Shown here: in pieces, positions 1,659 to 3,692 of the stretch | How the letters are laid out: every line of letters starts with the position of its first letter | Position numbering within the stretch: position 1 is the stretch's first letter | IMG/VR virus record: IMGVR_UViG_2923292180_000001 | Reading direction: 5' to 3' (one strand) | DNA length: 24,956 nt | From: a virus | Taxonomy: Duplodnaviria > Heunggongvirae > Uroviricota > Caudoviricetes | The notes under the pieces: generated by a model | The model's input: the letters and a program-made list of their open reading frames with translations, nothing else | What the model was told of the DNA's origin: nothing | The model's database searches: none | Program-made: the position numbers and the translations under genes

Positions 1659-3692
1659 TTAAGAATCAGCCTGACTCGGGATCAGTTTTTGCCAGATAAC
1701 TGAAACGTATTTTGCCTGGTAACGGGCGTCATCAAGTGCATTATGGCGCTCACCTTCGAATGGAATAGCCGTTCTGGCATCGAAGTCTATGGCTTTCCCC
1801 AGCTCAACGATTGTGCGTACATCGCGATCGTTGTAGTAACGCCACGGGCAGGGGATCCCCTGCCGTTCGTATGAACGGCGCAAAATCGTGTTGTCGAAGT
1901 TGGCTCCATTTCCCCAAACCTGAACAAAAAATTCACCGGAGTTTTCGTCGATAAATTCTCGCAATTGTAACAGTGCATCATCTAACGGGATTTCATCGGT
2001 CATAATGGCAGATTGCGCTTCGCGTGATTGCTTAAGCCACCATTTAATGGTGTCCCGATCAATGACTCCGCCAGCAGTTTCCAGATCGATAGTCTTACTA
2101 AATTCCGGTCCCATATCTCCGGTTTGCGGATCGAAAAATATTGCACCTATTGAGATGATCGGGGCATCAGGATTTTTTCCCATGGTTTCAAGGTCGATCA
2201 TTAGATGGTCACACGTCCTGCTGGTGGATGTGATTTCGTGATGACCGTTCACCTTAATTGGGTGATCTGCCGTCTCGCCAGTTTCATTATCGCTATTGTG
2301 ATGCTGATTGCCGCCAGTGTTCTCCTTGTGTGGATGTTCAGCGCCTTCCATTTCCTCCGGATCATCTTCCTGAACTTCAACCTGATACTCTTCATCGAAT
2401 GTTTCTTGGTATGTTGCGTCGCCCATCACCGCGCCACAATCAGGGCAGTTGCCGCCGCCGGTCTGACCGCAGGCGGTGCAGACTTTTTCCACTTCCTGTT
2501 GCGCTACTGGTTCAGGCTGTTTCGTTTCTGGCTCGTTTTGTAACGCATTTGGACTGTTTTGTTCCGCTTTTTGGTAGTTCCGTTCCGATTCATGCTGGTT
2601 CTGGTTCACAGAATCGCGGGTCTGGAGCCCCTTAACCCATTTCGGATCATTCGGGTCACTAATCCCTTCAACAAATTCACCACGTGATGCAGCAAGCAAC
2701 TTATCGGCGTCAGGCTGGCTGATATTGGCTGCCTGCATAATTTTGTTTACTTCGTCAGCGGTAACTTTTATCGGCTCTGGTTGTTCTGAATCTTCAGCGG
2801 TATCTACATTTTGCGGTAAGCCCGTGTATGTGCCATTTTTTCGGGCAAAATATTCTTCTTTTGTGATTTCAGTGGCGCCAGCAGCCAGTGCCTTATCCAG
2901 ACCAGAGAGTTTGTTTGCGCGACCGTATTTTTCTCCGTCCTTATCTGCGAAGAGGAAATAGAACGGCCCCTCACGCTCTACAGATGGTTCAGCTTCCGGC
3001 GCGGTTTCATTTTTTGGGATATCAGATACCTCAGTTTCCACTGCATCAGTTTGTGTTTCTGATGACTGGAGAACATCAACAGTGCCCAGGTCTGTTTCTT
3101 CATTCTCAAACACGCCCTTTGTCGTCAGGTATTCGCAGATATATTTGTTCAGTGCTACGGGATCTTTGTGAATGTCGATCGGACGCTCACGGACAAGGCC
3201 AAAAATAGTTTGGCGGTCGTAGCGAAGGGCATCAGGCTGTTTGCGCATTGATGCCGAGATACGCTTCCAGTCTTCGCGGTCGTTGTCGATAACTTCTTTT
3301 TTTGCCCAGCGATGGATGCTGCCGTCAATGTTTCCGGCATCCACATCACTAGGCCAGAGAGCGTAGGCCAGTTCGTCATCCAGTGTTTTCCATGTCTGCT
3401 TGTATTCGCGATGAATGGCAGCAATGACCGGGCTGATTTTTCCTGTTGAATTTTCAGTGTACTGTTGATTGGCTCTGGCGCGGGCGAGATCAACAACAGA
3501 CGTGTATTTTCCGGTTTCCTTGCGTTCACCTTCGCGACGTTTTTTCCAGATGCGCATCTCTGCCTGAATTTCGGGCCATTTAGCACCAGGAATACATTTA
3601 TGCTTAACCCACCCAATGGCGTGCAACTTAAGCTCCGGATACGGGTTATTCCCCTCTGAACAGGCGCGTAAGGACTGGCAAAACGCCCGCAA
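1659..3692 (-). CDS. RecE-like (exodeoxyribonuclease VIII-like) protein with C-terminal DEDDh (DnaQ-like) 3'-5' exonuclease domain
   Basis: 677-aa ORF. C-terminal region carries Exo I (MIDLETMG), Exo II ([12 protein letters not shown]) and Exo III ([10 protein letters not shown]) motifs; central acidic His-rich low-complexity linker; CxxC-x8-CxxC zinc ribbon ([16 protein letters not shown]); middle segment ([26 protein letters not shown]) resembles RecE from memory. Confidence 0.75.
   Translation of the reverse strand: [677 protein letters not shown]

What the first reader, a model, noticed from the sequence alone, without database searches (positions are those of the whole stretch)
1659..3692. 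RecE-like protein whose nuclease domain is DnaQ-type (DEDDh), with no RecT-like partner gene
The 677-aa ORF downstream of int-xis has a RecE-like middle segment ([26 protein letters not shown], from memory), an acidic His-rich linker, a CxxC-x8-CxxC zinc ribbon and a C-terminal domain with all three DEDDh exonuclease motifs. Canonical RecE is a 5'-3' PD-(D/E)XK nuclease paired with the annealase RecT; here the predicted polarity is 3'-5' and no annealase gene is adjacent. This looks like a domain-swapped variant whose role (recombination, anti-defence, nucleic-acid degradation) is unclear.
Basis: partly seen in the sequence, partly recalled or inferred. Interest (0 to 1): 0.55.

Follow-up and report, generated by a model that had tools for sequence, protein, structure and literature searches.

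The report
Truncated copy of common prophage exonuclease
The ORF is a beheaded, probably silent copy of a very common E. coli prophage gene (the intact form of K-12's ydfE pseudogene) that joins RecE-like non-catalytic domains to a DexA-like 3'-5' exonuclease. The architecture is real but already catalogued, so the finding is ordinary.

Summary
They include a RecE-like middle segment, a zinc ribbon (CxxC-x7-CxxC, not x8), an acidic His-rich linker, a C-terminal DEDDh exonuclease domain (Pfam PF16473, E 1.9e-67, all five catalytic residues present) and no annealase gene.

The 677-aa ORF is not a whole gene. Residues 18-677 are codons 164-823 of an 823-aa protein. The first 17 codons and the TTG start come from the antisense strand of a DUF977 gene. 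A ~4.6-kb deletion in this Qin cryptic prophage made that fusion and removed the gene's start, the early-left promoter and the immunity region. PGAP flags it as a pseudogene.

The intact gene is not new. Pfam models it as YdfE_N + YdfE_C + Rv2179c-like. K-12's ydfE is its N-terminal fragment. About 3,600 of 5,426 complete E. coli genomes carry it, and so do inducible phages (Tritos, HannyBb, PhiR42_1). A 2025 paper lists Tritos as the prototype of "nuclease, no annealase" lambdoid phages.

In relatives, the shared scaffold carries one of several interchangeable C-terminal heads: a DEDDh exonuclease, a PD-(D/E)XK nuclease followed by recT, or a Rad52-type annealase. Its physiological role remains untested.

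The parts
1659..3641 (-). Remnant of the ydfE-type exonuclease gene: codons 164-823 plus the stop codon (ORF aa 18-677)
   Evidence: 100% amino-acid identity to residues 164-823 of the intact 823-aa protein of phage PhiR42_1. PHROG 2082 match covers 156-822 of 823 profile positions. PGAP annotates it as a pseudogene missing its N-terminus.
3642..3692 (-). Spurious 5' extension of the ORF: TTG start plus 16 codons that are the antisense of a DUF977/lygF-like gene
   Evidence: The DNA alignment with PhiR42_1 shows this stretch matches the lygF region, not the exonuclease gene.
3640..3642 (.). Deletion junction (GTA microhomology, followed by imperfect CCGGAG similarity). About 4.6 kb are lost relative to PhiR42_1.
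   Evidence: the flanks map to L002 positions 7421 and 12045. The lost interval holds the lygF N-terminal part, O, cII, cro/dicC, cI/dicA, ydfA/B/C, ydfD and exonuclease codons 1-163 (feature table).
1692..2207 (-). DEDDh (DnaQ-fold, DexA/Rv2179c-like) 3'-5' exonuclease domain. Catalytic codons: D500 2193-2195, E502 2187-2189, D600 1893-1895, H650 1743-1745, D655 1728-1730.
   Evidence: Pfam PF16473, E 1.9e-67. AF2 pLDDT above 90 for this domain. Foldseek top hits are T4 DexA 8KEL (E 1e-9), RNase T and Orn. Coordinates checked.
2208..2435 (-). Acidic, His-rich, predicted-disordered linker (aa 420-495)
   Evidence: 20 D/E, 3 K/R and 7 H in 76 residues. pLDDT below 50 for the equivalent residues 573-636 of the intact protein.
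2436..2480 (-). Zinc ribbon [15 protein letters not shown] (CxxC-x7-CxxC), shared with RecE
   Evidence: Modelled as two short beta-hairpin strands, pLDDT about 78.
2250..3347 (-). Region homologous to the non-catalytic middle of RecE (RecE 277-591). The sub-stretch 2250-2711 is about 80% identical in protein and 86% in DNA to K-12-type recE.
   Evidence: BLASTP E 2e-61. NCBIfam NF007259 profile positions 271-600. Megablast hit to recE over window ~2264-2706 (H96).
1335..1586 (-). Excisionase gene, immediately after the exonuclease remnant in the transcription direction
20..1315 (-). Integrase gene (Qin-type), next to host rspB
   Evidence: PGAP start corresponds to 1300.
3631..3882 (+). C-terminal remnant of the DUF977 (lygF-like) gene. 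This is the other side of the deletion and is followed by a SAM methyltransferase gene (3879-4235).
   Evidence: PGAP annotation of the identical sequence. ORF list.

Best explanation
Shown:
- The ORF is the 3' four-fifths of the prophage gene whose N-terminal fragment is K-12's pseudogene ydfE.
- In this Qin-type cryptic prophage a ~4.6-kb microhomology deletion removed codons 1-163, the start codon, the early-left (pL) promoter and the whole cI/cro immunity and replication-origin region. It fused the rest to the antisense strand of a DUF977 gene.
- What remains lacks the first folded domain and about 60% of the second. It has only an accidental TTG start and no promoter signal above chance.
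- The intact 823-aa protein (Pfam YdfE_N + YdfE_C + Rv2179c-like) is built as beads on a string. It has two N-terminal folded domains, a helical domain, a small beta/alpha domain, a helix and a zinc ribbon. The last four are shared with the non-catalytic part of RecE. Long acidic disordered linkers connect these to a C-terminal DexA-like DEDDh exonuclease with all five catalytic residues.
- The intact gene is the last early-left gene before xis-int and never has an annealase neighbour.

Inferred:
- The window copy is most likely an unexpressed relic.
- The head is a Mg2+-dependent 3'-to-5' exonuclease acting on DNA 3' ends.
- The RecE/YdfE scaffold delivers it to DNA ends or to a host partner. 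The reason is that the same scaffold carries a PD-(D/E)XK 5'-3' nuclease (then followed by recT) or a Rad52-type annealase in related phages.
- Phages of this type (Tritos class) are Chi-rich and presumably rely on host RecBCD rather than on a phage annealase.
- I put the DNA-end-processing, recombination-linked role at about 0.4. The identification as a truncated copy of a known gene family I put at about 0.9.
For: Truncation and fusion:
-; PGAP pseudogene flag.
- K-12 ydfE equals residues 1-256 of the intact gene. Window 3364-3642 is identical to K-12 ydfE.
- No promoter excess: 4 sites found against 4.6 +/- 2.2 expected.

Domain content:
-; Pfam names YdfE_N and YdfE_C.
- AF2 domain map. 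Foldseek hits to DexA, RNase T and Orn.

Prevalence:
- At least 7,999 clusters at 90% identity.
- 3,606 of 5,426 complete E. coli genomes cover at least 80% of the remnant.
- Intact copies in phages PhiR42_1, HannyBb, Tritos, Evi, PPompW and the CP-933P type.

No annealase:
- Annotation and Pfam/PHROG scans of the early-left operons.
- tblastn with RecT, Red-beta, Erf and Rad52-like queries against the window and 11 further loci, with positive controls.

Interchangeable heads:
-.
- The PD-(D/E)XK head of P0141 is followed by a RecT-family gene (PF03837, E 2e-36).
- The Rad52-type head is homologous at E 1e-38 to 1e-45 to standalone proteins that pass the PF04098 cutoff.

Literature:
- The RecE N-terminal region has no known function (PMC11611040).
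- DnaQ-type nucleases near int, and Tritos as the 'nuclease+, SAP-' Chi-rich class (PMC12315714).
- T4 DexA is a DNA 3'-5' exonuclease (PMC12153337).
Against: - The remnant has 660 uninterrupted codons that are 100% identical in protein to a working phage's gene, so it has not decayed. Standalone ~190-aa DEDDh proteins of the same family exist and at least one is active, so a truncated product could still be an active nuclease if transcribed.
- PGAP calls the same ORF a real CDS in some genomes.
- Nothing here measures expression, enzyme polarity or substrate.
- The recombination link rests on domain co-occurrence and gene position only. Each neighbourhood pattern for non-DEDDh heads rests on one or two contigs.
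- The cited Genome Research paper does not count int-proximal DnaQ-type nucleases as Rec-module members and notes that 3'-5' exonucleases usually inhibit recombination.
Confidence: 0.85

Rival explanations
1. The truncated ORF is still expressed and has been kept by the host as a working N-terminally shortened exonuclease, for example as a defence nuclease.
For: 660 codons have no stop or frameshift and are 100% identical in protein to the intact phage gene. The same allele is present in at least 154 complete genomes. Standalone DEDDh proteins of this family work without any scaffold (EcD, PMC12153337). PGAP annotates the ORF as a CDS in some genomes.
Against: The start is an accidental TTG inside antisense DUF977 sequence. 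The native promoter and regulatory region are deleted. Promoter-like sites are not above chance and the nearest lie more than 330 bp upstream. The break falls inside a predicted helix of the second domain. Lack of decay is equally explained by a recent deletion spreading clonally.
Confidence: 0.1
2. Family level: the DEDDh head is not a recombination function. It would be an exclusion or defence nuclease that selectively destroys modified (5hmC-type) DNA of competing T-even phages, like the 'HREX' enzyme EcD. The scaffold would only regulate or localise it.
For: Kang et al. 2025 (PMC12153337) show that an E. coli DexA homologue, EcD, digests T4 DNA but not unmodified DNA and protects cells from T4. 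They note that Escherichia holds the largest share of 'bacterial' DexA homologues. An EcD-like standalone protein is 39% identical to the window's DEDDh domain (E 4e-41). T4 DexA is the best structural and sequence match in the PDB. Casjens, Smith and co-workers do not count int-proximal DnaQ nucleases as Rec-module genes.
Against: The residue aligned with DexA W152, which is needed for 5hmC recognition, is Tyr in this protein (alignments). The gene sits in the repressed early-left operon, so a lysogen would not normally express it. The same scaffold carries recombination enzymes (RecE nuclease, Rad52-type annealase) in relatives. EcD itself could not be retrieved, so the 39% figure is for a presumed close relative.
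Confidence: 0.25
3. Family level: the head is an RNA exonuclease (as in the Pfam family's namesake Rv2179c), or a general scavenger that degrades host nucleic acid for nucleotides.
For: The Pfam family is named for a 3'-5' exoribonuclease. Structural neighbours include RNase T, oligoribonuclease, REXO2 and ERI1. DexA has a host-DNA scavenging role.
Against: The closest solved relative by both sequence and fold is the DNA exonuclease DexA. A temperate phage that must preserve host and prophage DNA gains little from bulk degradation. The scaffold is shared with DNA recombination proteins.
Confidence: 0.1
4. It is a genuine RecE (exodeoxyribonuclease VIII), as several phage records label it.
For: Records for PhiR42_1, Tritos, 640R1 and others annotate it 'exodeoxyribonuclease VIII'. 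NCBIfam NF007259 gives a partial hit, E 5e-84.
Against: The score is 283 bits against a cutoff of 1269, and only profile positions 271-600 match. There is no PF06630 and no PF12684 domain. There is no similarity to RecE 606-866, and no recT.
Confidence: 0.01

Closest known systems
YdfE-type prophage '3'-5' exonuclease' (Pfam YdfE_N PF27430 + YdfE_C PF27432 + Rv2179c-like PF16473; PHROG 2082; K-12 pseudogene ydfE b1577; CP-933P / ECO26_1771 'exonuclease'; phages Tritos, HannyBb, PhiR42_1)
   Same: This is the same gene. Residues 164-823 are identical to the PhiR42_1 protein. It occupies the same position as the last early-left gene before xis-int, and it is in the same prophage type (Qin, beside rspB).
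   Different: The window copy lacks codons 1-163, its start codon and its promoter. K-12 keeps the complementary piece (codons 1-256), cut off by IS2.
RecE / exonuclease VIII of the Rac prophage (866 aa; PF06630 N-terminal domain, PD-(D/E)XK nuclease 606-866, partner RecT)
   Same: It shares the non-catalytic middle region (RecE 277-591), including the [11 protein letters not shown] helix, the zinc ribbon and the acidic linker. These are about 80% identical over the last 150 residues. It also has the same place in the early-left operon of a lambdoid prophage.
   Different: The N-terminal domain differs. The catalytic head is DEDDh (predicted 3'-5') instead of PD-(D/E)XK (5'-3'). There is no recT, ralR or rcbA downstream. 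It fails the NCBIfam equivalog cutoff.
T4 DexA (exonuclease A; PDB 8KEL/8KEN) and its E. coli homologue EcD ('HREX', Kang et al. 2025)
   Same: The head has the same DEDDh fold and catalytic pentad. DexA is the best PDB match by sequence (E 1.5e-6) and by fold (E 1e-9). An EcD-like standalone protein is 39% identical to the head.
   Different: DexA and EcD are standalone proteins of about 190-227 aa, whereas this head sits at the end of a 640-residue scaffold. The Trp used by DexA for 5hmC recognition aligns with Tyr here. Oligomer-forming residues were not assessed.
Standalone DEDDh exonucleases of SfV/ST64B/mEp460-type temperate phages (e.g. ST64B Sb30, mEp460 gp26)
   Same: They are 54-60% identical to the head and occupy the same slot immediately upstream of xis-int.
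   Different: They have no RecE/YdfE scaffold.
'RecE-2' proteins of lambdoid phages (Zheng et al. 2025) / Pectobacterium phage ZF40 gp07
   Same: They have the same YdfE_N/YdfE_C scaffold and the same operon position.
   Different: Their C-terminal head is not a nuclease. Here it is shown to be related to Rad52/Rad22-family annealases. It is followed by Mu Gam-like or Sipho_Gp157 genes.

Membership tests
RecE / exodeoxyribonuclease VIII (NCBIfam NF007259 equivalog) | C-terminal PD-(D/E)XK nuclease domain (Pfam PF12684; RecE 606-866) | tested here: not met
   No PF12684 hit at E<=1, while K-12 RecE gives E 4e-28. There is no BLAST or tblastn similarity to RecE 600-865.
RecE / exodeoxyribonuclease VIII (NCBIfam NF007259 equivalog) | N-terminal Exonuc_VIII domain (PF06630) | tested here: not met
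   Absent from both the intact 823-aa protein and the window ORF. K-12 RecE scores E 6e-98.
RecE / exodeoxyribonuclease VIII (NCBIfam NF007259 equivalog) | Whole-protein score above the curated cutoff | tested here: not met
   282.9 bits against a cutoff of 1269. Only profile positions 271-600 of 877 are matched.
RecE / exodeoxyribonuclease VIII (NCBIfam NF007259 equivalog) | Adjacent annealase gene recT | tested here: not met
   xis follows directly. tblastn with two RecT proteins finds nothing in the window or in 11 related loci, and the controls are positive.
RecE / exodeoxyribonuclease VIII (NCBIfam NF007259 equivalog) | 5'-to-3' dsDNA exonuclease activity | not testable with these tools
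   Needs an enzyme assay.
DEDDh (DnaQ-fold) 3'-5' exonucleases, Pfam PF16473 (Rv2179c/DexA-like) | Profile match above the gathering threshold | tested here: met
   226.8 bits against 27, E 1.9e-67, profile positions 2-177 of 177.
DEDDh (DnaQ-fold) 3'-5' exonucleases, Pfam PF16473 (Rv2179c/DexA-like) | Catalytic D, E, D, H, D in motifs I-III | tested here: met
   The residues are D500/E502 (MIDLETMG), D600 (GANFDN) and H650-x4-D655 (HNALDD). The first three align with DexA D7, E9 and D119.
DEDDh (DnaQ-fold) 3'-5' exonucleases, Pfam PF16473 (Rv2179c/DexA-like) | RNase H-like DnaQ fold | tested here: met
   The AF2 model has pLDDT above 90 over 641-820. Foldseek matches DexA, RNase T, Orn, REXO2, Cap18 and ERI1 at probability 1.00.
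DEDDh (DnaQ-fold) 3'-5' exonucleases, Pfam PF16473 (Rv2179c/DexA-like) | 3'-to-5' polarity and substrate (DNA or RNA) | not testable with these tools
   Inferred from the family only.
YdfE-type prophage exonuclease (YdfE_N + YdfE_C + Rv2179c-like; PHROG 2082) | Full-length colinear architecture of about 823 aa | tested here: not met
   The window copy matches only PHROG positions 156-822 of 823 and residues 164-823 of the intact protein. Intact relatives carry all three Pfam domains.
YdfE-type prophage exonuclease (YdfE_N + YdfE_C + Rv2179c-like; PHROG 2082) | Own start codon and early-left promoter context | tested here: not met
   The 5' end is replaced by antisense DUF977 sequence, and the cI-cro-pL region is deleted.
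YdfE-type prophage exonuclease (YdfE_N + YdfE_C + Rv2179c-like; PHROG 2082) | Position as the last early-left gene immediately upstream of xis-int | tested here: met
   Seen in the window and in PhiR42_1, HannyBb, Evi, 640R1 and the ompW prophages.
HREX defence exonuclease (EcD type, Kang et al. 2025) | Close homology to EcD, with the conserved Trp and acidic residue used for 5hmC recognition | tested here: inconclusive
   The head is 39% identical to an EcD-like standalone protein found through the published primer. The position aligned with DexA W152 is Tyr. The EcD sequence itself was not available.
HREX defence exonuclease (EcD type, Kang et al. 2025) | Selective digestion of 5hmC DNA and protection against T4 | not testable with these tools
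   Needs experiments.
Two-component phage recombinase (exonuclease + single-strand annealing protein) | Annealase encoded in the same operon | tested here: not met
   No RecT, Red-beta, Erf or Rad52-type gene was found by Pfam, PHROG or tblastn in the window or in any locus carrying a DEDDh-headed gene. This agrees with the published 'Tritos: nuclease+, SAP-' class.

The most novel reading that the evidence does not exclude
The non-catalytic RecE/YdfE region may be a general adaptor of temperate-phage early-left operons that carries interchangeable C-terminal heads. The heads seen are a 5'-3' PD-(D/E)XK nuclease (always with recT), a 3'-5' DEDDh nuclease (never with an annealase) and a Rad52-type annealase. 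The last would explain the published 'RecE-2' proteins of unknown role. On this reading the DEDDh-headed form would be a one-protein DNA-end processor that cooperates with host RecBCD/Chi instead of a phage annealase. That would give RecE's long-unexplained N-terminal two-thirds a testable function. None of this concerns the window copy itself, which is truncated.
Probability: 0.3. Interest if true: 0.5.

Novelty: already known. Interest (0 to 1): 0.2.

Why it matters
For this window it matters little. It is one more decayed gene in the Qin cryptic prophage, and the 677-aa "protein" should be annotated as a pseudogene fragment rather than a new RecE variant.

At family level the gene is among the most widespread prophage genes of E. 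coli, yet I found no experimental study of it. It is often mislabelled exonuclease VIII, which could mislead anyone mining prophages for RecET-like recombineering pairs.

The module shuffling seen here has one practical use. The same scaffold with a 5'-3' nuclease, a 3'-5' nuclease or a Rad52-type annealase offers a concrete way to ask what the non-catalytic part of RecE does. That part is known to boost linear-linear recombination in direct cloning.

Tried and rejected
- Sequence search of the Rad52-like head against PDB chains returned only noise. The link was made instead through standalone homologues that pass the Pfam PF04098 cutoff.
- PADLOC gave only a weak generic DEDDh (CRISPR-associated) hit, E 1.8e-5. 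The protein is not a recognised defence-system component.
- The promoter and terminator scan of 1300-4600 was not above shuffled expectation. It cannot show expression either way.
- Literature searches for 'Rv2179c + prophage', 'DexA + DEDDh + phage' and 'RecE + DEDDh + prophage' found no paper holding all the terms. One search was wasted because 'RecE' matched 'receptor' under word-start matching.
- I tried to recover EcD (HAK9828821.1) from its published primers. The forward primer hit 26 viral contigs, six of which carry a real DEDDh homologue. The reverse primer matched none, so only an EcD-like relative was compared.
- I assumed at first that the window equals strain PK6. It does not quite: it has an extra IS3 and lacks ISKox3.
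- I considered that the small early-left ORFs of HannyBb and Evi could hide an annealase. Pfam and PHROGs give DUF1391, DicB, DUF1482, Kil, PaaA2 or unknown small families, and none is annealase-like.
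Full report
**What is at the coordinates**

- The minus strand of 1659..3692 carries an uninterrupted ORF of 677 codons that starts with TTG.
- Pfam places a complete Rv2179c-like 3'-5' exonuclease domain (PF16473) at ORF residues 496-667 (E 1.9e-67, 226.8 bits against a cutoff of 27).
- NCBIfam's RecE model (NF007259) matches only residues 100-477, on profile positions 271-600 of 877. The score is 283 bits, far below the equivalog cutoff of 1269.
- The catalytic pentad is present: D500 and E502 (MIDLETMG), D600 (GANFDN) and H650-x4-D655 (HNALDD).
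- The zinc ribbon is C405-x2-C408-x7-C416-x2-C419. The linker that follows has 20 acidic, 3 basic and 7 His residues in 76.
- So the sequence-level observation is correct apart from the x8 spacer.

**The ORF is a fragment**

- PHROG 2082 ('exonuclease', 823 positions) matches the ORF only from profile position 156 onward.
- Phage PhiR42_1 encodes an 823-aa protein whose residues 164-823 are identical to ORF residues 18-677. The first 17 ORF residues have no counterpart in it.
- A DNA alignment shows that window bases above 3642 are the antisense strand of the phage's lygF-like (DUF977) gene. The two segments join at a GTA microhomology followed by an imperfect CCGGAG repeat.
- Relative to PhiR42_1, about 4.6 kb are missing (L002 7422-12044). 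The missing piece holds the N-terminal part of lygF, O, cII, cro/dicC, cI/dicA, ydfA/B/C, ydfD and exonuclease codons 1-163 (feature table).
- PGAP annotates the identical sequence in strain PK6 as '3'-5' exonuclease, incomplete, missing N-terminus', abutting a partial DUF977 gene.
- Promoter-like sites in 1300-4600 are not above chance.
- The window is the Qin cryptic prophage next to rspB. It is 99.9% identical to PK6 except for an extra IS3 and a missing ISKox3.
- K-12's pseudogene ydfE (b1577) is residues 1-256 of the same gene, cut by IS2. The K-12 and window fragments overlap by 279 identical bases.

**How common and how well known it is**

- A search with the intact protein saturated at 7,999 clusters at 90% identity. 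The hits are annotated 'exonuclease', '3'-5' exoribonuclease' or '3'-5' exoribonuclease domain-containing protein'. Their precomputed Pfam domains are PF27430, PF27432 and PF16473. A later output names the first two YdfE_N and YdfE_C.
- 3,606 of 5,426 complete E. coli genomes hold at least 80% of the remnant's DNA. The median is two places per genome and the maximum nine.
- At least 154 genomes carry the truncated allele in the same 5-kb context.
- Full-length copies are in phages PhiR42_1, HannyBb, Tritos, mEp460_ev081 and Evi, in the PPompW prophages of EHEC, and in the CP-933P type. They are labelled variously 'exonuclease' or, wrongly, 'exodeoxyribonuclease VIII'.

**Relation to RecE**

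- K-12 RecE has Pfam PF06630 at residues 1-177 and the PD-(D/E)XK domain PF12684 at 614-849. The intact YdfE-type protein has neither.
- What is shared is RecE 277-591, at 39% identity overall. Identity rises to about 80% over the last ~150 residues, which hold the helix, zinc ribbon and acidic linker. The DNA there is 86% identical, which indicates recent exchange.
- A review states that the RecE N-terminal region has no known function, although full-length RecE improves linear-linear recombination (PMC11611040).

**Anatomy of the intact protein**

- An AlphaFold2 model built on a 60-sequence alignment (mean pLDDT 76.6) gives these confident blocks:
  - residues 1-97 (alpha/beta),
  - 101-206 (helical),
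  - 241-346 (helical, RecE-like),
  - 385-435 (beta-hairpins plus helices),
  - a helix at 475-500,
  - the zinc ribbon at 549-572,
  - the exonuclease at 641-820.
- Disordered, mostly acidic linkers separate these blocks.
- The window copy therefore begins inside a helix of the second domain.
- Foldseek against the PDB matches only the head: T4 DexA (8KEL, E 1e-9), then RNase T, oligoribonuclease/REXO2, Cap18 and ERI1. DexA is also the only PDB sequence hit.

**The missing partner**

- In PhiR42_1, HannyBb, Evi, 640R1 and the ompW prophages the gene order is: cI, a few small genes (DUF1391, DicB or Kil, DUF1482/YdfD, others unknown), exonuclease, xis, int. Pfam and PHROG scans of every intervening ORF found no annealase.
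- The same holds for RecE-N-terminus + DEDDh proteins in a Rac-like prophage (P0123) and in another enterobacterial prophage (P0136).
- tblastn with two RecT proteins, lambda Beta, P22 Erf, three Rad52-like proteins, lambda Exo and the RecE nuclease found nothing at E<=0.01 in the window or in any of 11 further loci with a DEDDh-headed gene, including the 45-kb PK6 locus. All positive controls scored.
- This is already in the literature. Zheng et al. 2025 (PMC12315714) report DnaQ-like 3'-5' nucleases in lambdoid early-left operons. They note that int-proximal ones are not counted as Rec-module members. Their table lists a class 'Tritos: 4 phages, nuclease +, SAP -, anti-RecBCD -' with 7-21 top-strand Chi sites. 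Tritos carries a 99%-identical copy of this gene.

**Module shuffling**

- An exhaustive HMMER search of 50%-identity representatives gave 11,778 hits at E<=0.001, mostly standalone ~190-aa DEDDh proteins.
- Among the long ones, BLAST against defined modules shows these combinations:
  - RecE-type N-terminus + DEDDh: at least 11 representatives,
  - YdfE-type N-terminus + DEDDh: 3,
  - YdfE-type N-terminus + PD-(D/E)XK: 2,
  - YdfE-type N-terminus + a third head: 6.
- That third head is homologous (E 1e-38 to 1e-45, about 40% identity) to standalone ~240-aa proteins. These pass the Pfam gathering cutoff for Rad52_Rad22 (26-32 bits against 20.3). The fused forms give sub-threshold hits to the same profile positions. 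It is therefore a Rad52-type annealase, although PHROGs and phage records call these proteins 'exonuclease'.
- These are probably the 'RecE-2' proteins that Zheng et al. describe as lacking a nuclease domain and having no known role.
- Neighbourhoods fit a simple rule. The PD-(D/E)XK head of P0141 is followed by an overlapping RecT-family gene (PF03837, E 2e-36). Rad52-type heads are followed by Mu Gam-like or Sipho_Gp157 genes. DEDDh heads are followed directly by xis.
- Each non-DEDDh pattern rests on one or two loci.
- Standalone DEDDh genes occupy the same slot before xis in mEp460 and ST64B.

**How it most likely works**

- Shown: the head has the fold and the full catalytic set of a DEDDh exonuclease whose nearest characterised relative is a DNA 3'-5' exonuclease. 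It is tethered by flexible acidic linkers to a scaffold shared with recombination proteins. The gene belongs to the early-left operon and has no annealase.
- Inferred: the intact protein trims DNA 3' ends at sites chosen by the scaffold. Phages of this class lean on host RecBCD/Chi for recombination.
- A serious rival comes from Kang et al. 2025 (PMC12153337). Their E. coli DexA homologue EcD digests 5hmC-containing T4 DNA but not unmodified DNA, and it protects against T4. An EcD-like protein is 39% identical to this head, but the Trp that DexA uses to recognise 5hmC aligns with Tyr here.
- Neither role has been tested for this family.
- For the window copy the most likely state is no function at all.

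**Verdict**

- The interpretation as a domain-swapped RecE relative is right in spirit.
- The object is a pseudogene fragment of a catalogued, extremely common prophage gene, and the 'nuclease without annealase' situation has been described.
- Interest for this window is low. The only modestly new points lie outside the window: the Rad52-type head on the same scaffold and the head/partner rule.

Noticed in passing
window 3640-3642 (junction); 3631-4235 (+): A ~4.6-kb microhomology deletion has removed the whole immunity and replication-origin region of this Qin prophage (dicA/cI, dicC/cro, cII, O, ydfA-D and, by comparison with K-12, dicB/dicF). It leaves a partial DUF977 gene fused tail-to-head with the exonuclease remnant. 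At least 154 complete E. coli genomes share this 5-kb arrangement.
   Followed up: yes
window 16550-17807 (-): A complete IS3 (1258 bp, InsE/InsF ORFs, 3-bp target duplication) is inserted between ynfN and gnsB. It is absent from the otherwise near-identical strain PK6. Conversely, PK6's ISKox3 is absent from the window at about 22952-22959.
   Followed up: partly
window 5657-5828 (+) and 5902-7215 (+): An Rfam sok antitoxin RNA match (104 bits against a cutoff of 59) lies just upstream of a 437-aa ISNCY-family transposase ORF that PGAP calls partial. This may be a hok/sok remnant carried with or disrupted by the IS.
   Followed up: no
window 2220-2227 (+); same relative position in L002, L005, L006, L010, L012: A Chi site (GCTGGTGG, antisense to the gene) lies at the boundary between the acidic linker and the DEDDh domain, eight codons beyond the end of RecE homology. 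It is kept in homologues whose DEDDh domain is down to about 73% identical. It could be a hotspot for the head swaps, or it could simply reflect sequence conservation.
   Followed up: no
L040 4465-5445 (-) (IMG/VR contig IMGVR_UViG_2579778812_000023): A Dam-like DNA methyltransferase (DPPY motif), next to a standalone EcD-like DEDDh exonuclease, ends in CDACGHHGGGYCPDCGPVTGDATY. This is the same zinc ribbon plus GDATY tail as in RecE and the window ORF (window 2412-2480). The ribbon appears to be a mobile module attached to different DNA enzymes.
   Followed up: no
L009 5968-8133 (Pectobacterium phage ZF40 gp07); P0137, P0151, P0156, P0222: Proteins annotated 'exonuclease' (PHROG 2489/7838) carry the YdfE-type scaffold fused to a Rad52/Rad22-family annealase domain and have no nuclease domain. 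They are followed by Mu Gam-like or Sipho_Gp157 genes. They are probably the 'RecE-2' proteins of unknown role in Zheng et al. 2025.
   Followed up: partly
phage records PV340562, OV696610, ON470612 and others; RefSeq genomes: Annotation is inconsistent. The same gene is called 'exodeoxyribonuclease VIII', 'exonuclease', '3'-5' exoribonuclease' or 'Exodeoxyribonuclease encoded by cryptic prophage CP-933P'. The truncated window allele is a pseudogene in some RefSeq genomes and a CDS in others.
   Followed up: partly
window 12674-13066, 15576-15961, 21417-21615 (+): There are two cspA-type thermoregulator leaders (for cspB and cspI) and an IS009 RNA match upstream of ydfK's neighbour. These are ordinary Qin content.
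   Followed up: no
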